Assembly (NCBI GenBank): GCA_964640965.1
Contig: CAZXJB010000001.1
Span: 6,150 to 70,149, forward strand
DNA: 64,000 nucleotides
DNA from: an uncultured Actinomycetes bacterium
Lineage (GTDB): Bacteria; Actinomycetota; UBA4738; HRBIN12
Direction: 5' to 3'
How positions within the stretch are numbered: position 1 is the first letter of the stretch; each line of letters starts with the position of its first letter. Of the stretch, positions 3,173-61,832 are shown piece by piece. A program made the position numbers and the translations under genes. The notes below the pieces were generated by a model. It did no database searches, was not told the DNA's origin, and was given only the letters and a program-made list of their open reading frames with translations.

Positions 3173-4954
3173 TCACACGGCGGGGACGCCCCGCCCCTCC
3201 CGGAGGCGGCGCAGGCGTCCGTCCGTCTCGATCAGCTCGCGGAACAGCTCGTCGTAGCCGGCGTCGGTGGTGGGGTTCATGCTCTGGAGCCGTCGGCGGA
3301 GCTCCTCGCTGCGACGTCGGAGCCGGAACTCCTCGAGGCGGCTCCACACCTCCTCGGCGTAGCCCGGGACGGCCTCCCCGTCGAGCGGCTCGAGCGCGAG
3401 GGCCGAGAGCGACCGCACCACGCGCTCGTCGCCTTCGGCGACCGCCCGGCGCAGGTCCCCGCCCACCGAGCGCAGGGCCGCGAACAGGGTCCGGGCCGTC
3501 CGGGTCTGGAAGTGCTCCTCGCTCAGACGCTCCCCGATCGCGCGATAGACGCCCTCGTCCCGCGCGAGCAGGCGCAGCATCTCCCGCTCGACCCGCTCCT
3601 GGGCGGTGGCGCGCGTGATCGCCTTCTCGGGCGCCACCGGTCGGCCCTCGCGCCGGCGCTGGAGCGCGAGCACGACCGAGCCCTCGGTCACCCCGACGAG
3701 CTCGGCGAGCAGGTGGGCGTACTCCGAGAGGCGGACGGGGTCGGTCAACCCCTCGAGCAGCGGCAGGGCCGCCGCCACCGCCGCGGCCTGGCCCTCGACC
3801 GTGGTCAGGTCGTGCCGTCCCACCACCCGGCGGAGCATGTACTCGACGAGGGGCTCCGCGGCAGCCGCCCGCTCCCGGAATGCCCGGCCGCCGTGGGTCC
3901 GGACGAAGTCGGCGGGGTCCTCGCCCTCGGGCAGGATCAGCACCACCGGCCGCAGCGGGTAGGTCTCCAGGAACGCGAAGGCCCGCTCGGCGGCGCGGGC
4001 GCCCGCCTCGTCGGAGTCGAAGGCGAGCACCATCCGCTGCGCGAACCGGGAGGCCGCGCGGAAGTGGCCCTCGCCCAGGGCGGTGCCGCAGGTCGCGACC
4101 ACGTTGTCAACCCCGGCCATGGCGAGCGCGATCACGTCGGTGTAGCCCTCGACCACCACGATCTCGCCGGTGCGGGCCACGGCCGCCTTCGCGCGGTGCA
4201 GGTTGTAGAGCACCTCCCCCTTGCGGTAGATGGGCGTCTCCGGCGAGTTCAGGTACTTCGGCCCGTCATCGCGCGCCCCCGGCAGCGCCCGAGCGCCGAA
4301 CCCCACGGCCCTGCCGGCGAGGTCGTGCACGGGGAACGTGACGCGGCCGCGGAAGCGGTCCCGCACGTTCCCATCGGCGTCGCGGAGCGCCAGCCCGGCC
4401 TCGAGGAGGATCTCGGTCGACAGCGAGCGCGCGAGCCGCCGGAGCAGGAAGTCCGGGTAGCCGGGCGCGTAGCCGATGCCGAACGCCTCCCACGCCTCGC
4501 GCTCGAACCCCCGCGAGCGCAGGTACGCGCGGGCCTCCTCGGCCTCGCGCCCCTCGAGGAGCATGCGGTGGTACAGGGCGGCGGCCTGCTCGTTCGCGCG
4601 GTGGAGCGCCTGGCGGCGGGAGGCGGCGCGGCGCTCGGCCGGGGAATCGCCCTCGTACCGGAGCGTGAGGCCCGCCTCCTTGGCCAGGCGCTCGACCGCC
4701 TCGGTGAACTCCAGGTGCTCGATCTGGCGCAGGAACGTGATGGCGTCGCCGCCGGCCCCGCAGCCGAAGCAGTAGAAGACCCCCTTGCTCGGCGAGACCG
4801 AGAACGAGGGGGTCTTCTCGGCGTGGAACGGGCACAGGCCGCTGTAGGCATCGTGCCCGGTCTTCTTGAGGGCGAGGTAGCCCGAGACGAGCTTCACGAT
4901 GTCGGTCCGCTCCCGGACCGCCTCGAGGTCCTCCTGCCTGATCCTCCCGGCCAC
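3173..4954 (-). CDS. dnaG: DNA primase DnaG
   Basis: It has the zinc-ribbon and TOPRIM motifs '[34 protein letters not shown]' and 'EGYTDVIAL'. A GTG start at 4954 has a purine-rich RBS. The first ~306 codons of track ORF 3173..5872 are wrong-frame. Confidence 0.9.
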
Positions 4955-4989
4955 GCTCGTCCTCTCCCGGAGCGGCCGCGGACGCGGCC

Positions 4990-6000
4990 CTACAGCATCC
5001 AGCCCTGGGGAAGGAAGAGCTGCTCGTACACGCGGAGGGCGTACCGATCCGTCATGCCGGCGATGTAGTCGGCGATGCGGGTCGGCAGGTCGCCCGGAGC
5101 CCGATGGTACTCCTCCGGGACGGCCTCGGGATGCTCGAGGTAGTAGGAGAACAGGGTCCGGACGAGCGCGATGGCCTTCTCCTGCTCCGATCGCGCCTCG
5201 GGCCGCAGGTAGACGCGCTCGAAGAGGAACCCCCGCAGGACGTCGAGCGCGTGGGCCACCGGCTCGGAGAGCCGGACCTCGGGGCCCTCGGCGCTCGAGC
5301 GCACGAGGTCCGTGACCAGGGTGTCGATGCGCCGCCCGTGGGTCGGACCGAGCACCTCGAGCACCTCCGCCGGCAGGTCCTCGGGCCCAAGGACCCCGGC
5401 TCGGACGGCGTCGTCGACGTCGTGGTTCACGTACGCGATCCGGTCCGCGAGGCGCACCACGGCGGCCTCGGGGGTCGCCGGCGGCGGCGTCGACCAGGGG
5501 TGGTGCAGGATCCCGTCCCGGACCTCCCAGGTCAGGTTGAGCCCCCGCCCCTCGTTCTCCAGGTGGTCCACGACCCGGAGGCTCTGCTCGTTGTGCCGGA
5601 ACGGGCGCCCGAGGAACGGCGAGAGCGCCTCCTCGCCGAGGTGCCCGAACGGCGTGTGGCCGAGGTCGTGCCCGAGCGCGATCGCCTCGGTGAGGTCCTC
5701 GTTCAGGCGCAGCGCCCGGGCGGCGGTGCGCGCGATCTGGGCCACCTCGAGCGTGTGCGTGAGCCGCACGCGGTAGTGGTCGCCCTCGGGGGCGAGGAAC
5801 ACCTGCGTCTTGTGCTTGAGCCGTCGGAACGCCTTGGAGTGGACGATGCGGTCGCGGTCGCGCTGGAAGCACGTCCGCAGGGGGTCGAGCGGCTCCTCGC
5901 GCTCGCGGCCCTTGCTCGCCTCCGAACGCGTGGCGTGCGGCGCGAGCGTCTCGCGCTCGATGCGCTCGGTCACCTCCCGTGGGCTCGCCATGCCCCGCAT
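4990..6000 (-). CDS. dgt: dGTP triphosphohydrolase-like HD-domain protein
   Basis: An HD motif ('HTLEVAQIAR', 'GHDLGHTPFGH') is present. It lies in the dgt-dnaG-rpoD arrangement typical of Actinobacteria. Confidence 0.85.
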   Translation of the reverse strand: MRGMASPREVTERIERETLAPHATRSEASKGREREEPLDPLRTCFQRDRDRIVHSKAFRRLKHKTQVFLAPEGDHYRVRLTHTLEVAQIARTAARALRLNEDLTEAIALGHDLGHTPFGHLGEEALSPFLGRPFRHNEQSLRVVDHLENEGRGLNLTWEVRDGILHHPWSTPPPATPEAAVVRLADRIAYVNHDVDDAVRAGVLGPEDLPAEVLEVLGPTHGRRIDTLVTDLVRSSAEGPEVRLSEPVAHALDVLRGFLFERVYLRPEARSEQEKAIALVRTLFSYYLEHPEAVPEEYHRAPGDLPTRIADYIAGMTDRYALRVYEQLFLPQGWML

Positions 6001-6030
6001 GCTAGCGCGGGGGGCCGACGCGGCCGCCGG

Positions 6031-6660
6031 TCACTCGCCGAGCACGCGGTAGTACAGGTACGCGAAGACCTCCCGGAGGTACCCCTCGAGCCGGGTCCGC
6101 CGCGAGCGCGCGGCGGAGCGCCAGGTCGCCGAGACGTACGCCTCGATCCCGAGGTCCCGCGCCATCCGGCGGATCCGCAGGTTGTGCCACGGGTCCGAGA
6201 CGAGGAAGGCCGAGACGAGGCCCCGCTCGCGCATCCACGAGGCCGCCGCGCGGAGGCTCTCCAGGGTGGTCGAGCCGACCGGCAGCGCCACCACCGCCTC
6301 CGGCGGCAGGCCGTGGTCGAGGAGCCACGCGCGGCCGGCCTCGGCCTCCGTCGAGACGTCGCCGAGCCGTCCGGCGCCGAGCACGAGCACCCGCTCGGCG
6401 CGTCCCTGCCGGTACAGGAGGGCGGCGTGCTCCAGGCGCCCCTCGAACACCGGCGAGGGCGCCCCCTGGTACTGGGCCGCCCCCAGGACCACGATCGCGT
6501 CCGCGCGATCGATCTCGCTCGCGTCGTCGTGGTGCGCCGCCGCCCACACCGCCCACGCGGTGAGGCCGAGGACCGCCCCGGCCCCGAGCGCGAGCAGGAG
6601 CGCGAGGCTCGCGACCGGGTGGCGCAGCGGGAAGCGGACGAGGCGGGCGGCGGTCCCCAC
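6031..6660 (-). CDS. DUF218/YdcF (ElyC/SanA-like) membrane-associated protein
   Basis: An N-terminal TM segment is followed by a 'VVLGAAQYQG...LVSDPWHNLR' DUF218-like core. A GTG start is proposed at 6660. Confidence 0.55.
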   Translation of the reverse strand: MGTAARLVRFPLRHPVASLALLLALGAGAVLGLTAWAVWAAAHHDDASEIDRADAIVVLGAAQYQGAPSPVFEGRLEHAALLYRQGRAERVLVLGAGRLGDVSTEAEAGRAWLLDHGLPPEAVVALPVGSTTLESLRAAASWMRERGLVSAFLVSDPWHNLRIRRMARDLGIEAYVSATWRSAARSRRTRLEGYLREVFAYLYYRVLGE

Positions 6661-6733
6661 GGGTCGATGGTAGCCACCCCGGGGGTGGTCGCCCTGGGGT
6701 GATCGCCCGGGGGAACCGCCGCCCCCGCCACGG

Positions 6734-7186
6734 TCAGCCGGTGGGGAGCACGCCCGCCTCACGGAGGACCGTCAGGAACCCCCGCCGGGTGAACCCGCTG
6801 CCGAGCGCGGCCCGCCGCCCGCACGGCCCCGGGACCTGCCAGCTGAGGACCCAGGTGCGCTCCGAGCCGCGCAGCACACCCTCCACGCCGGGCGCGGCCT
6901 CGACCGAGCCGGCGACGGGCAGCCCCTCGCCGAACTCCCCCGGGATCCCGGCGAAGAGATGGATCTCCCGGCCATCCTCGCTCACCAGGCCGACGCGGGT
7001 CCCGATGTGATCCGGGTACGGGTCCCGGAGCGACTCCGCGACCTGGAACCCCGCGGGCGACCCGATCCCCAACTCGCACACCGGGCGCTCGTCGTGGGGT
7101 TCCCCGTCCACGTCGGCGCCGACCGTGCACCCGGAGATCACGAGGCCCGCGAGGACCGACGCCGCGAGACGGATGCCCCGCCTCAC
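6734..7186 (-). CDS. hypothetical lipoprotein
   Basis: It has a signal peptide with lipobox 'LVISGC'. No homology was recognised. Confidence 0.5.
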   Translation of the reverse strand: MRRGIRLAASVLAGLVISGCTVGADVDGEPHDERPVCELGIGSPAGFQVAESLRDPYPDHIGTRVGLVSEDGREIHLFAGIPGEFGEGLPVAGSVEAAPGVEGVLRGSERTWVLSWQVPGPCGRRAALGSGFTRRGFLTVLREAGVLPTG

Positions 7187-7680
7187 GGCAGCGAGGCCGG
7201 GATCGGCCCGACCAGCGGCCCCGAGCCGTCGGGCGCCGCCTCCTGTCCGAGTCCCGCGTACAGCCCGCCGAGCGAGCGGACCCGCTCCGCGAGGATCGTC
7301 GCGGGATGCCCCGCGGCGCTCATCGCCTCGGCGAACTCCCGCGCCCCCTCCTCGGTCCGGAAGGCGGAGACGAGCGCGAACTCGCCCGCCCGTCCAACCT
7401 GCTCGCGGAAGCCCTGGAACTGCGCCACCGGAACGACGTAGTAGCCCTGCACATCCCCGAGCCCCATGGCGCGGTTCGCGGCCTCGGCCTCCTCACGCGT
7501 CTCGAACACCCCGCCGACGACGAGCACGAGCATCTCCCCCGCGCCCGTGTCCGGCTTCATCGTCGCGGGGACCCGCGGCACCTCCGGCCCGGGGGCGGTC
7601 CGCGCGACGACCGCCACCCCGGTGATCAGCGCGAGCACGCCGGCCGCCCAGACCGCCGCGCGGAGCAACGTCTTCCTCAT
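7183..7680 (-). CDS. secreted hypothetical protein, possibly SPOR-like peptidoglycan-binding
   Basis: A strong RBS GAGAGGAGGA precedes ATG 7680 with a 5-nt spacer. A signal peptide 'MRKTLLRAAVWAAGVLALITG' is present. The C-terminal 'YYVVPVAQFQGFREQ...FALVSAFRTEEGAREFAEAM' loosely resembles a SPOR repeat. Confidence 0.5.
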   Translation of the reverse strand: MRKTLLRAAVWAAGVLALITGVAVVARTAPGPEVPRVPATMKPDTGAGEMLVLVVGGVFETREEAEAANRAMGLGDVQGYYVVPVAQFQGFREQVGRAGEFALVSAFRTEEGAREFAEAMSAAGHPATILAERVRSLGGLYAGLGQEAAPDGSGPLVGPIPASLP

Positions 7681-7694
7681 CGCATCCTCCTCTC

Positions 7695-8315
7695 TCAGTA
7701 GCCGAACGCGTACTGGAAGTGCATGGGGTCGCAGAAGTCCAGGCCCCAGCGCCACCCGTGGTCCTTGAAGATGTAGGCGAAGTTCTTGTTCGTCGTGCTC
7801 GTGCACGAGCCCATCGGCTCGTACGAGGCCGAGATGTCGACGGCGATGCCCCACGCGTGGGTGCTCCAGGTCGTGGTGCCGTCGATGTACCGACACAGGT
7901 ACCCCCAGATCCCGCTCTTCGTGTACTGGCCGAGGTGCGCGTTCTGGATGTGGCCGTACACGTCGTTGTCCAGGTTGGTCGAGACGCCGCCCTTGCCCGA
8001 GACCATCTCCGTGCGGTAGCCGCCGAGCTTCTTGTGGAAGCGGATCCGGTAGGTCTTGCCGTTGTCGGCGGCCGTCCAGTCCATCCAGACCTTGGAGGCG
8101 GCGTCGCTGCAGGGCTGGCCGAACCGGTTGACGATCTGCGTGTAGCCGGTCGGCGTGGCCGGGTAGTTGTAGTGCCAGTCGCGCCAGCCCGCCTTCTGCC
8201 AGTGCCACCCGAGCGCGAGCGGCGCGAGCGCGACGAGCGCGACCACCACCGTGAGGGGGAGGAGGCGCGGCCTGCGACGGCCGCGGTCGGGGCGAGCGGA
8301 GCTGCCCATGTCCAC
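7695..8315 (-). CDS. secreted M15-family (VanY / D-Ala-D-Ala carboxypeptidase-like) zinc peptidase
   Basis: A signal/TM segment is followed by the metal-binding motifs 'STHAWGIAVDI' (SxHxxGxAxD) and 'DPMHFQY'. An AGGAGG RBS sits upstream. Confidence 0.6.
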   Translation of the reverse strand: MDMGSSARPDRGRRRPRLLPLTVVVALVALAPLALGWHWQKAGWRDWHYNYPATPTGYTQIVNRFGQPCSDAASKVWMDWTAADNGKTYRIRFHKKLGGYRTEMVSGKGGVSTNLDNDVYGHIQNAHLGQYTKSGIWGYLCRYIDGTTTWSTHAWGIAVDISASYEPMGSCTSTTNKNFAYIFKDHGWRWGLDFCDPMHFQYAFGY

Positions 8316-8330
8316 CTCCTCTGACTCGTG

Positions 8331-8382
8331 GGGGAGTCCTACGGGGGAGTCCTACGGGGGAGTCCCACGGGGGAGTCCCACG
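8331..8382. repeat. 13-bp direct tandem repeat x4 (GGGGAGTCC[T/C]ACG) plus a degenerate fifth unit, in the 5' leader of the M15 peptidase gene
   Basis: The repeat is read directly: ggggagtcctacg x2, then ggggagtcccacg x2, then ggggaggcgggga. Confidence 0.9.
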
Positions 8383-8481
8383 GGGGAGGCGGGGAGGACG
8401 CGAGCCTACCTCGCGGGGCGCGCTCGCGCATCGCCCGCCCGGGGGAGATCGCGCCCCGAGGCGGGGGATTCGACGCTCCGG

Positions 8482-11202
8482 CTACTTCGAGGCCGACTCC
8501 GCCGACCCGAGGACGGCCTGCGCGGCGGCCAGCCGAGCGGTCTCGATGCGGAAGGGCGAGCACGAGACGTAGTCGAGGCCGATCTCGTGGCAGAAGGCCA
8601 CGCTCGCCGGGTCGCCGCCGTGCTCGCCGCAGATGCCGAGGTGCAGGCGGGGGTTCGCGGCCCGCCCCTCCTCGACCGCGATCCGCATCAGCCGGCCGAT
8701 CCCGGTCCGGTCGATCGTGACGAACGGGTTGGCGGGCACGAGGCGCCGCTCCTCGTACATCGCGACGAACTTGCCGATGTCGTCCCGGCTGAACCCGAAG
8801 CCCATCTGCGTGAGGTCGTTCGTGCCGAAGGAGAAGAAGTCGGCGACCTCGGCGATCTCGCCGGCCGTGAGCGCCGCGCGGGGCACCTCGATCATCGTGC
8901 CCCACTCGAGGTGCTCGAGCTCGACGCCCTCGCGCTCGAGCACGTCCCGAGCCACGGGCTCGAGCTCGGCCCGCATCTGCTCGAGCTCGGCTCGCGTCGC
9001 GACGAGCGGGATCATGATCTCGACCCTCGGGTCCCCGCCCTCCTTCCGCACCACCGCGGCCGCCTCGCAGATCGCCCGGACCTGCATCGCGTACAGCCCG
9101 GGCTTCACGATGCCGAGCCGCACCCCGCGCAGGCCGAGCATCGGATTGGCCTCGTGGAGCTCGCGGACCTTCGCGAGGATCCTGCGCGCCTCGTCCAGCG
9201 GCATCCGCTCGCCGCGGACCTCGACCTCCTCCTCGGCGGTGAGCTCCGCCACCCTCGTCGCAACCGCGAGCTCCTCGAGGTTCGGCAGGAACTCGTGCAG
9301 GGGCGGGTCGAGCAGCCGCACCGTGACCGGCAGGCCGCTCATCGCCCGGAAGATCCCGACGAAGTCCCCCCGCTGCAGGGGCAGGAGCTCGTCGTAGGCC
9401 GCCTGCTCCTCGGCCGGGGTCTCGGCGAAGATCATCCGGCGCACGGCCGCGACCCGCTCCGGGCCGAGGAACATGTGCTCGGTCCGGGCGAGGCCGATGC
9501 CCTCCGCCCCGCGCTCGCGCGCGTTCGTCGCCTGCTCGGGGGTGTCGGCGTTCGCACGGACGCGGAGCCGCCGCACGCGATCGGCGTGGGCCATGAGGCG
9601 CTCGAAGGCCAGCCAGATCCTCTCCGACCTCGCGGCGGCGTCCCCGGCCCGAGCGCGCTCCAGGACCGACTCCTCGAGCGGGAGCTCCCCCACGTACACG
9701 TGCCCGGTGAACCCGTCGATCGTGATGACGTCGCCCTCGCGGACCGTGGTCCCGTTGGCGGTGAAGCTCCGCGAGCCGAGGTCGAGCTTGATCTGGTCGG
9801 CGCCGCAGACGGCGGGGATCCCCTCGCCGCGGGCCACCACGGCAGCGTGCGAGTTCGTGCCCCCCGCCGAGGTCAGGATGCCCTGGGAGACGATCATCCC
9901 GTGGTAGTCGTCGGGGGTCGTCTCGCGACGGACGAGGATCACCCGCTCGCCGCGGCCCGCCCACGCCTCGGCATCGTCCGCGCTGAAGACGACCCTGCCG
10001 GTGGCCGCGCCCGGGCTCGCGTTGAGGCCCCTGGCGATCGGCTCCCGCCCCTCGGCCCGCACGCGTCGCTTGAAGAGCTCCTCGAGGCGGTTCGCATCGA
10101 CCCGCAGCAGCGCCGTGTCCTCGTCGATGAGCCCCTCTTCGAGCATGTCGTAGGCCATGACCCACTCCGCGAGCGCGGTGCGCTTCCCGACGCGGGTCTG
10201 GAGGATCCAGAGCTTGCCCTTCTCGATCGTGAACTCGATGTCGCACATGTCCCGGTAGTGCATCTCGAGCGTGTGCATGACCTGCAGGAGCTCCCCGTAG
10301 GAGACGGGGTCCAGCCGCTCGAGCTCGGCGAGCGGCAGCGTGTTCCGGATCCCCGCCACGACGTCCTCCCCCTGGGCGTTCGGCAGGTAGTCGCCGTAGG
10401 GGACCTTCTCCCCCGTCGCCGGGTCGCGCGTGAAGGCCACGCCGGTGCCGGAGTCCTCGCCGCGGTTGCCGAAGACCATGGCGACCACGTTCACCGCGGT
10501 GCCGAGATCGTCGGGGATCCGGTTCTGGCGCCGGTAGTCGCGCGCGCGCTTGCCGTTCCAGCTCTTGAACACCGCCTCGATGGCCAGGCGCAGCTGGACC
10601 CTGGGGTCCTGGGGGAAGTCCTCGCCGACGTGCTCGCGGTAGACCCGCCGGAACTCCTCGATCAGAGCCTGGAGGTCCTCGGCGTCGAGGTCGGTGTCCT
10701 GCGCGCCCGGGAACTTCGCCTCCTTCGCCCGCTCGAGCGCCTCCTCGAACGCCTCCCCCGGCACCCCCATGACGATCTTCCCGAACATCTGGATGAACCG
10801 CCGATAGGCGTCCCGGGCGAAGCGCAGGTCCCCGCCCGAAGCCGCCGCGAGGCCCTCCACGGACGCGTCGTGCAGCCCGAGGTTCAGGACGGTGTCCATC
10901 ATGCCGGGCATGGAGAACTTCGCCCCCGAGCGGACCGAGACGAGGAGGGGATCCTCGGGATCGCCGAGGCGCCGACCCATCGTCGCCTCCAGCCGCGCGA
11001 GGTGCTCCTCGACCTCCTGCATCAGCCCCGGGGGGAAGTCGCCCTCGCGCAGGTACGCGAGGCAGGCCTCGGTCGTGATCGTGAACCCGGGCGGGACGGG
11101 CAGACCCATGTTCGTCATCTCGGCGAGGTTCGCGCCCTTCCCGCCGAGCAGGTCCTTCATGTCCTTGTTGCCCTCGTGGAAGTCGTACACGTACTTCGTC
11201 AC
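8482..11202 (-). CDS. ppdK: pyruvate, phosphate dikinase
   Basis: The 906-aa product starts 'MTKYVYDF...GGKGANLAEM' and contains the catalytic His region 'GGTNSHAAVVARG'. A GGGAGG RBS is present. Confidence 0.95.
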   Translation of the reverse strand: MTKYVYDFHEGNKDMKDLLGGKGANLAEMTNMGLPVPPGFTITTEACLAYLREGDFPPGLMQEVEEHLARLEATMGRRLGDPEDPLLVSVRSGAKFSMPGMMDTVLNLGLHDASVEGLAAASGGDLRFARDAYRRFIQMFGKIVMGVPGEAFEEALERAKEAKFPGAQDTDLDAEDLQALIEEFRRVYREHVGEDFPQDPRVQLRLAIEAVFKSWNGKRARDYRRQNRIPDDLGTAVNVVAMVFGNRGEDSGTGVAFTRDPATGEKVPYGDYLPNAQGEDVVAGIRNTLPLAELERLDPVSYGELLQVMHTLEMHYRDMCDIEFTIEKGKLWILQTRVGKRTALAEWVMAYDMLEEGLIDEDTALLRVDANRLEELFKRRVRAEGREPIARGLNASPGAATGRVVFSADDAEAWAGRGERVILVRRETTPDDYHGMIVSQGILTSAGGTNSHAAVVARGEGIPAVCGADQIKLDLGSRSFTANGTTVREGDVITIDGFTGHVYVGELPLEESVLERARAGDAAARSERIWLAFERLMAHADRVRRLRVRANADTPEQATNARERGAEGIGLARTEHMFLGPERVAAVRRMIFAETPAEEQAAYDELLPLQRGDFVGIFRAMSGLPVTVRLLDPPLHEFLPNLEELAVATRVAELTAEEEVEVRGERMPLDEARRILAKVRELHEANPMLGLRGVRLGIVKPGLYAMQVRAICEAAAVVRKEGGDPRVEIMIPLVATRAELEQMRAELEPVARDVLEREGVELEHLEWGTMIEVPRAALTAGEIAEVADFFSFGTNDLTQMGFGFSRDDIGKFVAMYEERRLVPANPFVTIDRTGIGRLMRIAVEEGRAANPRLHLGICGEHGGDPASVAFCHEIGLDYVSCSPFRIETARLAAAQAVLGSAESASK

Positions 11203-11284
11203 GATCTGCCTCCCGAGCTCACCGGCGTTCCCGCTCAGTCTACGGAGACCGGGGCCCGATGGGACCGTTCAGGACGCCGTGCGC

Positions 11285-12595
11285 TCAGCACACCGCGTTC
11301 AGGAACGGGAAGGGGTTCACGGCCTCCCCGCCCCCGGGGTGGTACTCGAAGTGGTCGTGCGGTCCGGAGGCGTTCCCCGTGCTGCCGACGAAGCCGATGA
11401 CGTCCCCGGCGTGGACCTCGCCGAGCCGCCCGTAGGCCGACAGGTGCGCGTTGTACACGTACCCGCCCTCGCCGTAGACCTTCACGGCGATGCCCCCGAG
11501 CAGGTTGTCCGCGGCGACGGCGACGCCGTCGAACGGCGCCCGGATCGGCGTCCCCGGCGGAGCGAAGATGTCGATCCCCTCGTGCAGGTGGAACCCCCCG
11601 CTCCAGCGCGGCGCGTGCCAGTCGTCGGCGTAGCTCATCGGCTGGTCCACCGGACACACGCGCAGGACCCCTTCGAGCGCGACGTCCACCCGGCCGAGCT
11701 CGCTGGGGAAGGCCTCGAGCCACGTCGCGACGAGCAGCTCGGCCACCACCATCTCCTGCGTGAGGTCCCGGTGCGTCGCGCGCACGCCGCGGAGATCCGC
11801 CTCGAGCTCCTCGATCCGCCCTCGCATCCGGGCGGCCTCCGCGAGCACCTCGGCCTCGCGGGCCCGGAGCTCCAGGCGCGCGCGGAGGGTCCGCCCGAGC
11901 TCGCTCCGGGCCCGGGCGAGCAGCGTCTCGGCCTCGGCGGTGACGCGAGGCTCCCCGGGGATCCCGCGAACGGCGGCGGCGACGGCGGCCGCCCGCGCGA
12001 GCTCCGCCCGCACCCGGTGCTCCTCCTCCGCCAGCCGCGCCTGCGCCCGGCGCAGGTCGGCGAGGAGCGCTCGCATCTGCTCGAGCCTCCGCTCGGCGTC
12101 CGCCCGCTCCGCCAGCAGGGCGATGCCGAGCCGGTCGTTCGCGCGCATCGCCCCGGTCACGACCACGAGCGGCGCTCGCAGGTCGGCGAGGGTCTCCGGG
12201 GCCTCCGGTCGCCCCGGCACCACGCCGGTCATCACGACCCCGGCGGCGAGGGTCCGGCGTCGCTCCCGCAGGCGGCCGAAGGCGGCGAGCCGTCGCTCGG
12301 CGCTCGCCGCCTGATCGCGGATCTCACCCAGACGCACGGCGACGTCCCGGGCGCGCCCTTGCAGCTCCGCGACCTGCGCAGCCAGGACGTCGAGCTGAGC
12401 CCCCACCTCCTCCAGGACCGCCCGGGCCGCCACGAGCCGCACGTCGGGTCCGACCGCGGCGCCCCCCGGGATCCCGCCCGCGAGCACGAGCGCCGCGACG
12501 AGCGCCCCCGCGAGCGCGAGCCGCGGGAGCGACGGCCTCAGGCGAGCTCGTCGACGCGGAGGATCGCGCCGGTCGCGTGCACCTCGGCGCTGCAT
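11285..12595 (-). CDS. M23 family (LytM) metallopeptidase with an N-terminal coiled-coil
   Basis: The C-terminal LytM domain shows 'HxxxD' and 'HDHFE' ('GIDIFAPPGTPIRAPFDGV...GSTGNASGPHDHFEYH'). A long Arg/Ala/Glu coiled-coil precedes it. The start is uncertain (ATG 12595 overlaps the upstream gene by 57 nt; GTG alternatives lie downstream). Confidence 0.8.
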   Translation of the reverse strand: MQRRGARDRRDPPRRRARLRPSLPRLALAGALVAALVLAGGIPGGAAVGPDVRLVAARAVLEEVGAQLDVLAAQVAELQGRARDVAVRLGEIRDQAASAERRLAAFGRLRERRRTLAAGVVMTGVVPGRPEAPETLADLRAPLVVVTGAMRANDRLGIALLAERADAERRLEQMRALLADLRRAQARLAEEEHRVRAELARAAAVAAAVRGIPGEPRVTAEAETLLARARSELGRTLRARLELRAREAEVLAEAARMRGRIEELEADLRGVRATHRDLTQEMVVAELLVATWLEAFPSELGRVDVALEGVLRVCPVDQPMSYADDWHAPRWSGGFHLHEGIDIFAPPGTPIRAPFDGVAVAADNLLGGIAVKVYGEGGYVYNAHLSAYGRLGEVHAGDVIGFVGSTGNASGPHDHFEYHPGGGEAVNPFPFLNAVC

Positions 12596-13275
12596 ACGAA
12601 CCCCCAGGATTGGCCCGGCCGCCAGTCCTCCTTGTTGTCCATGCCGGCGGCGAGCAGGCGACCGCTCCGATCGAGGAACGAGCACCCGAGCTGCGCGTAG
12701 GGGATGACCCGGCCGCTCGTGTTCTCGGCGATCCCGATGAGGTCCGAGTACCCGTAGCTGTGCGTGAGCTGCACGTCGTAGATCCGCACGAGACCCTCGA
12801 ACCCCGTGACCTCCACGCTCACGCCCTCGCCGTTCGGCACGTAGACGGTCTCGGTCACGGTCTCGGTCACGGTCTCGGTCACGACCTTCACCTTGGCCGC
12901 CCGGAGCTCCGCGATCCGCTCCCGCAGCTCCCCGACCCGGGCGGCGAGATCCGCCCGCGCGGCCTCGGCGGCCCGCAGCGCGTCCGCGGTCGCGTCGAGC
13001 TCCGCCCGCAGGGCCTCGATCTGCGTCGCCATCCGGTCCACGTCCCTCCGGGCGCCGACGGACCCGACCGCCCCGGCCGAGACGGCGAGGACCACGAACG
13101 CGAGGACCCACGTGAGCCGGCGCCGCCAGCGCCGGCGACGCCGGGTCGGCGGCCCGCCTCCGGGGCGGGATCTCGCGAGCTCGTCCTCCAGCAGGTCCCG
13201 GCTGACCATGAGCAGCCCCATGCCGGGGAGGAGCGGGTCGGGTGGAGCGGGCGGCGCTTCCAGGGTCGACCTCAT
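12538..13275 (-). CDS. membrane-anchored coiled-coil protein with a (VTET)n repeat; unknown function
   Basis: A TM segment 'LTWVLAFVVLAVSAGAV' and a coiled-coil are followed by 'VTETVTETVTETVYVP' and a C-terminal globular domain. Confidence 0.55.
   Translation of the reverse strand: MRSTLEAPPAPPDPLLPGMGLLMVSRDLLEDELARSRPGGGPPTRRRRRWRRRLTWVLAFVVLAVSAGAVGSVGARRDVDRMATQIEALRAELDATADALRAAEAARADLAARVGELRERIAELRAAKVKVVTETVTETVTETVYVPNGEGVSVEVTGFEGLVRIYDVQLTHSYGYSDLIGIAENTSGRVIPYAQLGCSFLDRSGRLLAAGMDNKEDWRPGQSWGFVCSAEVHATGAILRVDELA
12847..12882. repeat. 12-bp perfect tandem repeat x3 (ggtctcggtcac) encoding VTET repeats
   Basis: The repeat is read directly. Confidence 0.9.
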
Positions 13276-58708: not shown

Positions 58709-60707
58709 GCGGCTGCGACGCGAGCTGGAGCGGGCCGCCCGGCCCGCCGACCCCACCGGCGTCTACGAGGAGCTGATCCGCCGGCGCGAGCGGCGCCGCA
58801 TCGTCCGCCGCGTGGAGGCGGGGTTCGTCGCCTTCGCCGTGAGCGTGGGGAGCATCGTGGGGATCTGGGTCCTCGTCCGCGGGTCCGAGGGCGGCACGGT
58901 GGCCACCCCCGGCCCCGGGGACGAGATCGCGGCCCTGCTGTACCGCTCGCCTTTCGGGCAGCCGCCGACGGACGGAGGGGCGTGGCAGCCCACATCCCTC
59001 GAGCTCGCGCTGATCTCGGCCCGGGACGGCTCGATCCGGACCCTCCTGTCGTCACGAGGTGAGGTCTCCGGGGATCGCATCCTCTCCACCCCCAGCTGGT
59101 CGCCGGACGGGAGCACCCTCGCGTTCTGGCGCGTCCCCGATCGAGCGCGCGCGGATCCGCCGGGCCTGTACACGATCGATGCCGAGGGCGGTCCGCCGAA
59201 GCTCCTGCTCGAGACCGAGCTGTCGATCCAGGACCTCGCCTGGTCCCCGGACGGCACGCGCGTCGCGTTCGTCGGCCTGGAGCCCACCGACGGGACGGAG
59301 CTCGACTGGCCGACCGCGATCTACACGGTGGCGGCCGACGGTTCCGGCCCGGTTGCTCGGCTCCCGATCGAGGGCCCGATCCGGGACCTCGCCTGGTCCC
59401 CCGACGGCTCGCTCCTCGCGATCACGCGGCTCGCCCCCGGGGGTGAGGGCGGCCTCCAGGCCCGACTGATCACCGAGGACATCTACCTCGTGGACCCCGT
59501 GGACGGGAGCATCACGCGCCTCACCGACGACGGGCGGTCCTCCGACCCCGCCTGGTCGCCCGACGGGCGCCAGATCGCCTTCACGAGCAGCGGCGAGACC
59601 CCGCTCCCGGGGCTCTTCGTGATGAACGCGGACGGGAGCGGGCGGCGCCGGCTGACCTTCCCGGACGGCGCGGACGCCAGCCCGACCTGGTCGCCCGACG
59701 GGCGGTGGATCGCCGTCGCGCGGTCCACGCTCAGCCCGAGCGGCGCGAGCGGGCCCATCGGGGGCTCCTCCTGCCAGGTGGTGCTGGTCGCCGCCGACGG
59801 CTCCGGGGAGCGCGTCCTCGTGGACGGCCCCATCGACGGCGCCTGCGCGACCGAGCTCGCCTGGCGTCCCGCCCCGGTCGCCACCTCACCGACGGACCAG
59901 GTCTCCGAGGCACCGAGCCCCCTCCCGACGACCTCGCCCTCCACCGCGAGCCCGGCCCCGGCCAGCCCCTCCCCGGTGCCAGATCTCGCCGCGGGGTGCG
60001 GCCTCTCCGCGATCCAGGGCGACTACGACGGGGACGGCGTCCTCGACGTCGCGGTCGTCGCGACCCTCTCCGCCGACGGCAGCTGCCCCGAGCCCGGCAA
60101 GGGCGAGACGTACCTCGGCATCGGCTTCGGCCAGACCGAGCAGGACGTGGGCGCCGGGACCTTCGGCGCGGACCTCGCCTTCGGCCCGCTCGAGTGCGGC
60201 GCGGACGTCGGCTGTCGGGTGTTCGCGGCCCCCGACCTCGACGGGGACGGGACGGCGGAGATCGCGGTCGTCCAGGACGCGGGGGCCAGCGCCGAGATCC
60301 TCGGCCTGTACCGGATGGAGATCTGCGGGCCGGCCCAGGACTGCCTCACCTCCTCCTGGATCTCCGCCATCGAGGTCGCCGAGCCCGGTGACCCCACCCT
60401 CCCGCTGGAGCCCGGGCCCGCGCGGATCCTGTGGGGCGGCTCGGTCGTCGAGTCCTACGGCGCGTACTGCGGCCCGATGGAGGGCGACCCGCCGACCGAT
60501 GAGACGGGCTTCGTCGTGTGGCGTGCGTCCGCCGATGCCGCCGGCTCGGGAGCGACGGTGCACGAGGCGCTGCTCCAGCTCCGGGGGGCGCGCCTGCGGG
60601 TGGTCGCGACCCACGACTACGAGGTCCCGTCGACGGCGGCCGGCCTTCCCCCCGGTGGCGGCTCCGACCTGTGCGGGGCGCCGGTGGCGGGCCCGGGCGG
60701 GGACTGA
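58662..60707 (+). CDS. membrane-anchored anti-sigma-like protein with a TolB/PD40 beta-propeller and a C-terminal FG-GAP/VCBS-like domain
   Basis: A single TM 'GFVAFAVSVGSIVGIWVLV' is followed by repeated 'WSPDG' PD40 motifs and 'DGDGVLDVAVV' / 'DLDGDGTAEIAVV' FG-GAP-like repeats. The start overlaps the sigma gene (GTG 58662 or TTG 58692). Confidence 0.65.
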   Translation: MSPRPRRRTTLTRLDERLRRELERAARPADPTGVYEELIRRRERRRIVRRVEAGFVAFAVSVGSIVGIWVLVRGSEGGTVATPGPGDEIAALLYRSPFGQPPTDGGAWQPTSLELALISARDGSIRTLLSSRGEVSGDRILSTPSWSPDGSTLAFWRVPDRARADPPGLYTIDAEGGPPKLLLETELSIQDLAWSPDGTRVAFVGLEPTDGTELDWPTAIYTVAADGSGPVARLPIEGPIRDLAWSPDGSLLAITRLAPGGEGGLQARLITEDIYLVDPVDGSITRLTDDGRSSDPAWSPDGRQIAFTSSGETPLPGLFVMNADGSGRRRLTFPDGADASPTWSPDGRWIAVARSTLSPSGASGPIGGSSCQVVLVAADGSGERVLVDGPIDGACATELAWRPAPVATSPTDQVSEAPSPLPTTSPSTASPAPASPSPVPDLAAGCGLSAIQGDYDGDGVLDVAVVATLSADGSCPEPGKGETYLGIGFGQTEQDVGAGTFGADLAFGPLECGADVGCRVFAAPDLDGDGTAEIAVVQDAGASAEILGLYRMEICGPAQDCLTSSWISAIEVAEPGDPTLPLEPGPARILWGGSVVESYGAYCGPMEGDPPTDETGFVVWRASADAAGSGATVHEALLQLRGARLRVVATHDYEVPSTAAGLPPGGGSDLCGAPVAGPGGD

Positions 60708-60709
60708 GC

Positions 60710-60759
60710 CTCAGCCGGCGAGGGCGAGGACGAGCTCAGCCGGCGAGGGCGAGGACGAG
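60710..60759. repeat. 25-bp perfect tandem duplication (ctcagccggcgagggcgaggacgag x2) spanning the hemW stop codon
   Basis: The repeat is read directly. Confidence 0.9.
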
Positions 60760-61832
60760 CTCGTTCAGCACAAGCATGCCGCGCTCGGTCGGCACAAGCG
60801 CCCCGTCCGCCCGCCGCAGGAGGCCGGCCTCGAGCAGCGGGCAGGCGGCGCTCGGCTCCGCCCAGGAGGCCGGGACGCCCTCGAGGATGCGCAGGCGCAG
60901 GAACACCTCCTCGAGGCGCGCCTCCTCGGGCCCGAGGCGCTCCTCGCCGCCGATCGGGAGCTCGCCCGCTTCCACCCGTCGCACGTACTCCTGGGGCGGT
61001 CGGACGTTCCACCAGCGGCGCTCGCCGCGGTAGGAGTGCGCGCCAGCGCCGAGCCCGAGGTAGGGCTCGCGCCGCCAGTACCCGAGGTTGTGCCGGCACT
61101 CGAACCCCGGCCTGGCCCAGTTCGAGACCTCGTAGTGCCGGTACCCGGCCGCGCCGAGGAGCTCGCAGGCGAGGGCGAACATCTCGGCCTGCAGATCCGG
61201 GTCCGGAGCGGGCCGCAGCCCGAGCGCGACCTGCCGTCCGAGCGGGGTCCCCGGCTCGACCGTGAGGGCGTAGGCGCTCACGTGCTCGGGCCCGAGGGCG
61301 ATCGCCTCGCGGAGCGTCCGCTCCCAGGAGGCGAGCGTCTCGCCCTCCGCCCCGTAGATCAGGTCCAGGTTCACGTCCTCGAAGCCCGCCTGGCGAGCGG
61401 CGGCCATCGCCCGACGGACCGAGTCCGGACCATGCACCCGTTCGAGCGACGCGAGCACCGCGGGATCGAAGGACTGCGCGCCCATCGACAGGCGCGTGAC
61501 CCCGGCCTCGCGCAGGGCCGCGAGCTTCGCGGCGTCCACCGTGTCCGGGTTCGCCTCGACCGAGACCTCGGCCCCCGGTGCGATCCGGAAGCGCTCCCGG
61601 AGGGCCGCGAGGACCGCCGTCAGGTCCCCCGCGGGGAGCGTCGTCGGGGTCCCGCCGCCCACGAACACGCTGCGGACCTCCTCCTCCGCCCAGGCCGGCG
61701 CGGCGAGCTCGGCCTCGCGGATCAAGGCTCGGACGTACGGCGCGCGCAGGTGCTCCAGCCCCGCGTACGCGTTGAAGTCGCAGTACCCGCAGCGGGTGAG
61801 GCAGAAGGGCACGTGGACGTAGATGCCCGCGC

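What the first reader, a model, noticed from the sequence alone, without database searches (positions are those of the whole stretch)
8316..8481. A 13-bp tandem repeat array (x4 plus a degenerate unit) lies in the leader of a secreted M15 peptidase
GGGGAGTCC(T/C)ACG is repeated head-to-tail four times. Two 'T' units are followed by two 'C' units, which suggests stepwise duplication. The array starts only 16 nt upstream of the peptidase RBS and sits just downstream of GC-rich hairpins after the ppdK stop. Such an array could be a variable-number repeat modulating expression (slipped-strand phase variation), a multimeric regulator-binding site, or a leader RNA structure. A 13-bp period is not helical, which argues against classic response-regulator direct repeats.
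Basis: seen in the sequence. Interest (0 to 1): 0.5.

Follow-up and report, generated by a model that had tools for sequence, protein, structure and literature searches.

The report
Variable repeat inside a ribosome-site hairpin
A real 13-base repeat that varies between strains sits in the loop of a conserved RNA hairpin hiding the ribosome-binding site of a cell-wall peptidase gene; at most it probably fine-tunes that gene's translation.

Summary
The repeat is real. Tandem Repeats Finder reports 8330-8388, period 13, 4.5 copies, 97% matches. The genes lie on the minus strand, so in the mRNA sense the unit is CTCCCCC plus 6 nt, present five times (8388-8324).

Eighty-plus orthologous ppdK-to-M15-peptidase loci from uncultured Actinomycetota share one short leader:
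- a TANNNT -10-like box;
- a C-rich tract holding CCACCTCC, the exact complement of the ribosome-binding site GGAGGTGG;
- an 8-14 nt loop, then the ribosome-binding site.

The array is an expansion of "3' half of that complementary tract plus loop" inside the hairpin loop. It occurs only in one subclade with at least 93% nucleotide identity, and its sister lineages carry a single unit.

Copy number and unit sequence both vary. Two assemblies identical over 6.9 kb differ only by one 13-nt unit. CTCCCCC is invariant in every unit, while the 6-nt spacer differs at about half its sites.

Equilibrium folding keeps the ribosome-binding site sequestered at every copy number tested, so an on/off switch is unlikely. 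The best reading is a slippage-generated, transcribed variable repeat that at most tunes translation. A protein-binding array, any Rfam family and a coding repeat are not supported. Effects on expression remain untested.

The parts
8482..11202 (-). ppdK (pyruvate phosphate dikinase), the upstream gene; stop codon TAG at 8484-8482
   Evidence: Pfam PPDK_N, PEP-utilizers and PEP-utilizers_C. The ppdK-to-peptidase gene order is conserved in most of the 80 orthologous loci.
8427..8471 (-). Conserved upstream boxes: GAATCCCCCG (8471-8462), GATCTCCCCCG (8450-8440) and GGGCGATGCG (8436-8427, equivalent to TGGTGATGCG in orthologues). Probably a promoter or operator region, or the ppdK terminator.
   Evidence: GG-GAT and the C-run are invariant in the alignment of 55 orthologues. 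Function was not determined.
8403..8408 (-). -10-like hexamer TAGGCT (TANNNT); the predicted transcription start is about 8397-8395
   Evidence: T, A and T of TANNNT are nearly invariant in 55 orthologues at a fixed distance from the C-tract. In about 30 orthologues a GAAC-N4-GTTC box abuts it. The transcription start was not mapped.
8385..8397 (-). Ancestral C-rich tracts: distal CCTCCCC (8397-8391) and proximal anti-SD CCGCCTCC (8392-8385), which pairs with GGAGGTGG through one G.U pair
   Evidence: RNAalifold on 55 orthologues predicts only this helix, 7 pairs kept in 50-55 of 55 sequences. In the window the SD's predicted partners are these positions, with probability 0.97-1.0.
8324..8388 (-). 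The 13-nt array: CTCCCCCGTGGGA x2, CTCCCCCGTAGGA x2, CTCCCCCACGAGT x1. The last unit is the ancestral loop; unit 1 overlaps the 3' half of the anti-SD.
   Evidence: Orthologues without the array have only ...GCCTCCCCCACGAG(A/C)C....
8312..8319 (-). Shine-Dalgarno sequence GGAGGTGG
   Evidence: GGAGGTG is invariant in 55 orthologues. It is the exact complement of the conserved CCACCTCC.
7695..8309 (-). M15_4 metallopeptidase gene (204 aa, N-terminal membrane anchor or signal), start ATG at 8309
   Evidence: Pfam PF13539, E = 4.6e-12. There are 354 homologues, many called from this start.

Best explanation
The array is a lineage-specific, fast-evolving 13-nt minisatellite. It arose by slipped-strand duplication of the segment CTCCCCC+ACGAGT. 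That segment is the 3' half of a cis anti-Shine-Dalgarno tract plus the apical loop of a hairpin that sequesters the ribosome-binding site. The hairpin sits in the short 5' leader of a conserved, membrane-anchored M15 cell-wall peptidase gene.

Shown:
- The repeat is real.
- Its position is between the conserved anti-SD (CCGCCTCC) and the SD (GGAGGTGG).
- The hairpin is conserved across more than 55 orthologues, and the array is absent from them.
- The array-bearing alleles form one clade.
- Copy number differs by exactly one unit between otherwise identical DNA.
- Unit spacers diverge while CTCCCCC stays invariant.

Inferred:
- Transcription starts a few nt after the TANNNT box, so the whole array is in the mRNA.
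- The array stretches the hairpin loop from about 10-14 nt to about 65 nt without opening the SD at equilibrium.
- Its effect, if any, is therefore quantitative. The likely route is kinetic or co-transcriptional: delayed closure of the anti-SD:SD helix, or transient pairing with the extra CUCC tracts. That would tune translation of a potentially lytic enzyme rather than switch it on and off.

I put about 0.85 on the structural description and about 0.4 on a measurable effect of copy number on expression.
For: - The repeat is real and unique in the window.
- The conserved leader has TANNNT, CCACCTCC and GGAGGTG invariant or nearly so. The only consensus helix is anti-SD:SD.
- Median P(SD unpaired) is 0.005, against 0.25 for composition-matched shuffles; 56 of 59 leaders fall below their shuffles.
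- The leader is 25-28 nt long in most orthologues and 67-80 nt in array alleles.
- Array alleles: window and L001 have 5 units; L008 5; L168 4; L002, L005, L006, L007 and L161 5; L003 and L004 4. L009-L014, L083, L113, L167, L169 and all more distant loci have 1.
- L002 against L004: 6,920 bp, 0 mismatches, 1 gap.
- Array-bearing alleles are monophyletic on the peptidase gene.
- CTCCCCC is invariant, against 0.51 differences per site in the spacer.
- A period of 13 is not a multiple of 3, so the repeat is not coding.
Against: - Equilibrium folding predicts almost no change in SD occlusion: 0-8 extra units give P(unpaired) 0.007-0.064 and an opening free energy of 17-20 kcal/mol.
- The natural 5- and 4-unit alleles give identical values from 30 to 75 C, so a functional effect is not supported thermodynamically.
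- The extra C-tracts are not the predicted partners of the SD.
- The arrays are no more stable than shuffles (z from -1.3 to +0.3).
- The transcription start is unmapped.
- The copy-number difference rests on short-read metagenome assemblies.
- The invariance of CTCCCCC is not explained by this model alone.
Confidence: 0.55

Rival explanations
1. Neutral passenger. The hairpin loop tolerates insertions, the C-run is slippage-prone, and the array has no effect on expression; it simply drifts in copy number and sequence.
For: - The array is absent from more than 70 orthologous leaders that keep the hairpin.
- Folding predicts no change in SD occlusion with copy number.
- The arrays are not unusually structured.
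- Other lineages show sporadic partial C-tract duplications, for example L066 CCTCCCCGCCGTG|CCTCCCCCGAAAC, L039 and L046.
Against: - CTCCCCC is invariant in all 8 distinct units while the adjacent 6 nt differ at 0.51 per site.
- L168 has four units with four different spacers, which argues for constraint on each C-tract.
- All five array haplotypes hold 4-5 units despite 3-7% divergence of the adjacent gene.
Confidence: 0.27
2. DNA-level G-quadruplex. The array puts 6-7 runs of G5 on the template (+) strand just downstream of the promoter. That could form an intramolecular G-quadruplex, or an i-motif on the C strand, that impedes RNA polymerase or replication and also drives instability.
For: - Array alleles have 6-7 runs of at least 3 C/G, against 2-3 in array-less leaders.
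- The best 25-nt-window G4Hunter magnitude is 1.8-2.2.
- Invariant tracts with variable, constant-length spacers are the pattern expected of a G-quadruplex.
Against: - The loops are 8 nt, outside the canonical limit of 7 or fewer.
- The conserved CT of CTCCCCC is not needed for a G-quadruplex.
- The spacers themselves contain GGG complementary to the C-runs, which favours the duplex or a hairpin.
Confidence: 0.08
3. Binding platform. The repeated CUCCCCC (RNA) or GGGGGAG (DNA) recruits several copies of a factor that normally binds the ancestral C-rich leader. The factor could be a protein or a G-rich small RNA.
For: - Conserved 7-nt core with a variable spacer.
- The three Cs after CCUCC are nearly invariant in 55 orthologues although they lie in the loop.
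Against: - The 13-bp period is out of helical phase.
- The array lies downstream of the -10-like box.
- CCTCCCCC is not enriched elsewhere in the window: 14 found against 10.9 expected.
- No candidate factor was identified.
- The array is absent from nearly all orthologues.
Confidence: 0.07
4. Assembly artefact. The copy-number difference, or the array length itself, is produced by short-read assemblers.
For: - All the data are metagenome assemblies.
- The Logan contig L001 ends exactly at the 5' edge of the array.
Against: - The same array was recovered independently in the window and L001.
- The 5-unit allele appears in five assemblies and the 4-unit allele in two, on slightly different haplotypes: L003 has 3 SNPs against L002, L004 has none.
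- The perfectly periodic runs (35-50 nt) are shorter than reads and than typical final k-mer sizes.
Confidence: 0.03

Closest known systems
Haemophilus influenzae hmw1A/hmw2A 5'-UTR heptanucleotide repeat (ATCTTTC)n (PMC12721329)
   Same: It is a tandem repeat between promoter and start codon that is transcribed as part of the 5' UTR and folds into a long hairpin with a G-rich partner. Copy number varies between strains, and the effect on expression is graded rather than on/off.
   Different: In hmw the effect is proven and depends on RNase III, and arrays are long (11 or more units of 7 nt). Here the unit is 13 nt with 4-5 copies, and it derives from the anti-SD and loop of an SD-sequestering hairpin. 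The organisms are uncultured environmental Actinomycetota, and no expression data exist.
SD-sequestering leader hairpins (cis anti-SD; expression platforms of translational riboswitches and RNA thermometers)
   Same: An 8-nt anti-SD (CCACCUCC or CCGCCUCC, a mimic of the 16S 3' tail, from my own knowledge of that sequence) pairs with an extended SD. The pairing is conserved in orthologues, and the SD is predicted to be occluded far beyond what base composition gives.
   Different: No aptamer or ligand-binding domain was found: Rfam gives nothing and no other conserved helix appears. Predicted melting is negligible up to 75 C, so it does not behave like a classical thermometer in silico. A variable repeat inside the loop is not a feature of those families.
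Helicobacter pylori tlpB leader G-repeat targeted by the small RNA RepG (PMC8295292)
   Same: A length-variable homopolymer-rich repeat in an mRNA leader whose length sets translation gradually, through C/U-rich to G-rich pairing.
   Different: There the repeat is a simple G-run and the partner is a trans-acting small RNA. Here the repeat is C-rich, 13 nt long, and the G-rich partner is the gene's own SD in cis.
Actinobacterial 6C small RNA with C-rich loops (PMC6486639)
   Same: [quoted passage not shown]
   Different: 6C is a trans-acting small RNA with a defined two-hairpin fold. There is no Rfam 6C match here, and these tracts act in cis within a leader.

Membership tests
Bacterial intergenic variable-number tandem repeat (contingency or rheostat locus) | Head-to-tail repeats of high identity | tested here: met
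   Tandem Repeats Finder gives 4.5 copies at 97% matches, and there are four exact copies.
Bacterial intergenic variable-number tandem repeat (contingency or rheostat locus) | Copy number differs between closely related genomes | tested here: met
   L002 and L004 show 0 mismatches over 6,920 bp and one 13-nt gap. Lineages carry 5, 4 or 1 units.
Bacterial intergenic variable-number tandem repeat (contingency or rheostat locus) | Copy number changes expression of the adjacent gene | tested here: inconclusive
   Only equilibrium folding could be run, and it predicts no change in SD occlusion. No expression data are available.
Bacterial intergenic variable-number tandem repeat (contingency or rheostat locus) | High-frequency, reversible change within a clonal population | not testable with these tools
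   This needs read-level or culture data.
SD-sequestering leader hairpin | A cis sequence complementary to the SD, conserved across orthologues | tested here: met
   CCACCTCC pairs with GGAGGTGG; 7 pairs are kept in 50-55 of 55 sequences.
SD-sequestering leader hairpin | SD occluded more than base composition predicts | tested here: met
   Median P(unpaired) is 0.005 against 0.25 for shuffles; 56 of 59 leaders are lower than their shuffles.
SD-sequestering leader hairpin | Opening in response to a signal (temperature, ligand or protein) | tested here: inconclusive
   In silico the SD stays closed from 30 to 75 C. No ligand domain was found.
Any described RNA family (Rfam 15, including the ydaO riboswitch and 6C) | Covariance-model match | tested here: not met
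   No relevant match at E up to 10 in the window region or at E up to 1 in nine orthologous loci.
Direct-repeat regulator-binding site (response-regulator or iteron type) | Repeats in helical phase, upstream of or overlapping the promoter, and conserved in orthologues | tested here: not met
   The period is 13 bp. The array lies downstream of the conserved TANNNT box and is absent from more than 70 orthologues.
Intramolecular G-quadruplex motif (template strand) | Four or more G-runs of at least 3 | tested here: met
   Array alleles carry 6-7 such runs, against 2-3 in array-less leaders.
Intramolecular G-quadruplex motif (template strand) | Loops between G-runs of 7 nt or fewer | tested here: not met
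   All loops are 8 nt. There are 0 canonical matches; matches appear only when loops up to 12 nt are allowed.

The most novel reading that the evidence does not exclude
Each unit's invariant CUCCCCC is under selection because the array is a multi-copy, copy-number-tunable decoy that mimics the 16S 3' tail. In that reading it would be a heritable rheostat for translation of a lytic cell-wall peptidase, acting kinetically on the conserved anti-SD:SD hairpin. Such a rheostat in free-living, uncultured Actinomycetota would extend contingency-locus logic beyond host-adapted pathogens.
Probability: 0.2. Interest if true: 0.65.

Novelty: new member of a known kind. Interest (0 to 1): 0.36.

Why it matters
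If copy number does tune translation, this would be a transcribed variable repeat built from the anti-SD element itself, in environmental high-GC bacteria. Contingency-type repeats are rarely described in such organisms.

Independently of the array, the comparison uncovers a deeply conserved leader across a large uncultured Actinomycetota clade. It has a -10 box, a 16S-tail-mimicking anti-SD and an extended SD, often with a LexA-like box. This implies tight, possibly DNA-damage-linked, control of a membrane-anchored M15 peptidase encoded next to ppdK.

If the array is neutral, it is simply a good strain-typing marker for these uncultured lineages.

Tried and rejected
- **Rfam.** I scanned the window region at E up to 10 and nine orthologous loci at E up to 1. 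There was no riboswitch, 6C or ydaO match; the only hits were chance miRNA and small-RNA matches.
- **Sigma-70 promoter and terminator scan of 7600-9000.** It found no promoter-like site and one terminator-like site inside ppdK. The scanner's consensus does not suit high-GC actinobacterial promoters.
- **Dispersed-repeat idea.** The 13-mer with up to 2 mismatches is not enriched outside the array (16 found against 10.5 expected). CCTCCCCC is not enriched either.
- **Metagenome scan with GGAGGTGGASATGGGCAGC.** Of 72 hits, only 3 were the peptidase locus: L113, L161 and L163, the last being the same contig as L004. The rest were chance matches.
- **Selected self-structure in the array.** Rejected, because z-scores are -1.3 to +0.3 against shuffles.
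- **RNA thermometer tuned by loop size.** Not supported by predicted melting.
- **Extra units as the equilibrium partner of the SD.** Not supported by the predicted partner lists.
- **LexA box in the window's own leader.** None found at up to 1 mismatch.
- **Other readings.** A CRISPR array is excluded because there are no spacers. A coding repeat is excluded because the period of 13 is not a multiple of 3. The + strand ORF 8328-8720 runs antisense to ppdK, and I regard it as a high-GC artefact.

Full report
**Observation**

The + strand of 8331-8382 carries four exact head-to-tail copies of GGGGAGTCC(T/C)ACG, two T units and then two C units. Tandem Repeats Finder reports 8330-8388, period 13, 4.5 copies, 97% matches and score 104, the second-highest score in the window. 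The spaced motif CTCCCCC-N6-CTCCCCC occurs four times, all here, against 0.31 expected. The repeat is therefore real and not a chance match.

**Orientation and anatomy**

Both flanking genes are on the minus strand.
- ppdK runs 11202-8482 and carries Pfam PPDK_N, PEP-utilizers and PEP-utilizers_C.
- A 204-aa Peptidase_M15_4 protein with an N-terminal hydrophobic anchor runs 8309-7695.

Read in the gene sense, the intergenic region is:
- ppdK stop codon TAG at 8484-8482;
- GAATCCCCCG at 8471-8462;
- GATCTCCCCCG at 8450-8440;
- GGGCGATGCG at 8436-8427;
- TAGGCT at 8408-8403;
- CCTCCCC GCCTCC at 8397-8385;
- the array, then CAGA;
- GGAGGTGG at 8319-8312;
- ATG at 8309.

In this sense the natural unit is CTCCCCC plus 6 nt, present five times: CTCCCCCGTGGGA twice, CTCCCCCGTAGGA twice and CTCCCCCACGAGT once (8388-8324).

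**Orthologues**

I collected orthologous loci in four ways:
- exact-protein look-ups;
- a GTDB genome scan with an alignment of 31 homologues (80 loci, all uncultured Actinomycetota MAGs);
- a metagenome pattern scan;
- a tblastn check of gene order, which showed the ppdK-to-peptidase arrangement in most loci.

Printing the intergenic regions and aligning 55 array-less leaders showed a strongly conserved architecture:
- two GAATC(C/G)CCCG boxes;
- TGGTGATGCG;
- a palindrome;
- a nearly invariant TANNNT;
- a C-rich tract YCTCYCCCACCTCCCCC;
- 8-14 variable nt;
- an invariant GGAGGTG(G);
- a start codon 3-8 nt later.

CCACCTCC is the exact reverse complement of GGAGGTGG. RNAalifold predicts this as the only consensus helix, with 7 pairs kept in 50-55 of 55 sequences. 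There are no compensatory changes, as expected when one arm is the ribosome-constrained Shine-Dalgarno sequence (SD).

The predicted mean probability that GGAGG is unpaired has a median of 0.005. Leaders whose upstream part was shuffled give 0.25, and 56 of 59 native leaders fall below their own shuffles. The conserved element is therefore a short leader, 25-28 nt from the -10 box to the SD, whose cis anti-SD sequesters an extended SD. The anti-SD mimics the 16S rRNA 3' tail, as far as I recall that sequence. Rfam has no family matching the window or nine orthologues.

**Where the array sits and how it arose**

In the window the anti-SD is CCGCCTCC (8392-8385, one G.U pair). The array lies between it and the SD, in the apical loop of the hairpin. 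Array-less relatives read ...GCCTCCCCCACGAG(A/C)C..AAGGAGGTGG (L009-L014, L083, L113, L167, L169). That sequence is exactly one unit. The array is thus a tandem multiplication of "3' half of the anti-SD plus loop".

The alleles recovered, written as the 6-nt spacers of successive units, are:

| Allele | Units | Spacers |
|---|---|---|
| window, L001 | 5 | GTGGGA, GTGGGA, GTAGGA, GTAGGA, ACGAGT |
| L008 | 5 | TCGGGC, TCGGGC, TCGGGGC, GTAGGA, ACGAGT |
| L168 | 4 | TCGGGC, GTGGGC, ACAGGA, ACGAGT |
| L002, L005, L006, L007, L161 | 5 | TGGAGC, ACGGGT x3, ACGAGT |
| L003, L004 | 4 | TGGAGC, ACGGGT x2, ACGAGT |

- On a neighbour-joining tree of the peptidase gene the array-bearing alleles form one clade (at least 93% nucleotide identity). 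Their sister lineages lack the array. This implies a single origin followed by turnover.
- L002 and L004 are identical over 6,920 bp apart from one 13-nt gap. L003 carries the same 4-unit allele on a haplotype with 3 SNPs. Copy number therefore changes faster than point substitution.
- An assembly artefact is unlikely. The periodic runs are 35-50 nt, and each allele was recovered in at least two independent assemblies. It is still not formally excluded.

**A constraint I cannot explain**

Among the 8 distinct 13-nt units, positions 1-7 (CTCCCCC) show no difference, while the spacer differs at 0.51 sites per site. L168 has four units with four different spacers. Recent duplication would homogenise whole units, and neutral drift would also hit the C-tract. 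Something therefore constrains each C-tract.

**What does the array do?**

I tested what could be computed.
- In a synthetic series of 0-8 extra units the SD stays sequestered. P(unpaired) is 0.007-0.064 and the free energy of opening is 17-20 kcal/mol.
- The natural 5- and 4-unit alleles L002 and L003 give identical values from 30 to 75 C. Removing the array from the window allele changes P(unpaired) only from 0.007 to 0.001.
- The SD's predicted partners remain the ancestral tracts, not the new units.
- The arrays alone fold no better than dinucleotide shuffles (z from -1.3 to +0.3).

At equilibrium the array is therefore a tolerated loop insertion. An on/off phase switch and a loop-tuned thermometer are not supported. 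What remains is a kinetic effect. The SD is now transcribed about 65 nt rather than about 12 nt after its anti-SD, with competing CUCC tracts and G-rich spacers in between. The alternatives are a DNA-level effect or no effect at all.

On the DNA level the array creates 6-7 G5 runs on the template strand, against 2-3 in array-less leaders. The loops are 8 nt, outside the canonical G-quadruplex definition. A protein-binding array is unlikely for four reasons:
- it lies downstream of the -10-like box;
- its period is out of helical phase;
- it is absent from almost all orthologues;
- its core is not enriched elsewhere in the window.

**Promoter inference**

TANNNT is nearly invariant at a fixed distance from the C-tract. 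In about 30 orthologues a GAAC-N4-GTTC palindrome with variable N4 abuts it; this was usually the only such site in a 7.5-kb locus. It matches the actinobacterial LexA motif tCGAAC-N4-GNNCGa reported for Streptomyces venezuelae (PMC9380542). Operators overlapping a -10 box fit a promoter here, which places the array in the 5' UTR. The window's own clade lacks this box. The transcription start was not mapped.

**Comparison with known systems**

- The closest precedent is the transcribed (ATCTTTC)n repeat in the Haemophilus influenzae hmw1A 5' UTR. It forms a long hairpin with a G-rich arm and grades expression through RNase III (PMC12721329).
- The Helicobacter pylori tlpB G-repeat targeted by RepG (PMC8295292) and the C-rich loops of the mycobacterial 6C small RNA (PMC6486639) share the C-rich to G-rich pairing logic.
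- The present case differs in three ways. The unit derives from the anti-SD and loop of a conserved SD hairpin, the organisms are environmental uncultured Actinomycetota, and no functional data exist.

**Verdict**

"Phase variation" and "regulator-binding site" are not.

I class the array as a new member of a known kind, a transcribed intergenic variable repeat. It has moderate interest because of its position inside a conserved anti-SD hairpin and the unexplained invariance of its C-tracts.

Noticed in passing
L051:3424-3435, L042:3427-3438, L015:3392-3403 and about 27 other orthologous loci; absent at window 8409-8430: A GAAC-N4-GTTC palindrome with variable N4 sits directly upstream of the TANNNT box of the peptidase leader in about 30 orthologues. 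It matches the actinobacterial LexA (SOS) box consensus and suggests DNA-damage control of this M15 peptidase. The window's clade has lost it.
   Followed up: partly
window 8471-8462, 8450-8440, 8436-8427 (minus strand): Two direct GAATC(C/G)CCCG-type boxes lie about 21 nt apart. A quasi-palindrome ATCCCCC..GGNGAT is centred roughly 43 nt upstream of the predicted start, with GG-GAT invariant in 55 orthologues and some paired changes (TCACC/GGTGA against TCCCC/GGGGA). It could be an operator or activator site, or the ppdK terminator hairpin.
   Followed up: partly
L074:3352-3501, L076:3334-3483, L069, L075, L090 leaders: In a more distant clade (50-55% protein identity) the anti-SD is CCUCCUCC, which by my recollection of the 16S 3' tail matches it even more closely. 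It is presented in the loop of a conserved CCGG/CCGG stem just upstream of GGAAGGAGGUG. This is a different architecture for the same SD-masking theme.
   Followed up: no
L066:3330-3439, L061, L080, L039:3358-3467, L046:1086-1195: Independent partial duplications of the C-tract appear in other lineages. Examples are CCTCCCCGCCGTG|CCTCCCCCGAAAC at a 13-nt spacing and three CTCCCC tracts in L039. Even the standard leader looks like a 9-nt duplication (CCTCTCCCA|CCTCCCCCG). The site seems recurrently slippage-prone.
   Followed up: partly
window 32462-32439 (minus strand): A second leader in the same genome has a C-tract facing its SD: CCTCCCCCTCGTGGGACGGAGGTG, just upstream of an ORF beginning MLKLFFATDVHG. 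Its loop resembles the array unit CTCCCCCGTGGGA.
   Followed up: no
L001:1-20 (Logan contig of SRR11582145): This contig is otherwise identical to the window but ends exactly at the 5' edge of the array. That could reflect a branch in the assembly graph caused by copy-number heterogeneity in the sample.
   Followed up: no
window 60695-60762: This is the highest-scoring tandem repeat in the window: period 25, 2.6 copies, 93% matches, score 111, unit GGGCGAGGACGAGCTCAGCCGGCGA. The period is not a multiple of 3. Overlapping ORFs on both strands made its context unclear.
   Followed up: no
window about 3173-13111 (minus strand); L002: A conserved gene neighbourhood: M23 peptidase, ppdK, M15_4 peptidase, two small proteins with no Pfam match (165 and 150 aa), DUF218, an HD-domain dGTPase-like protein, and DnaG. 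Two cell-wall peptidases bracket ppdK.
   Followed up: no
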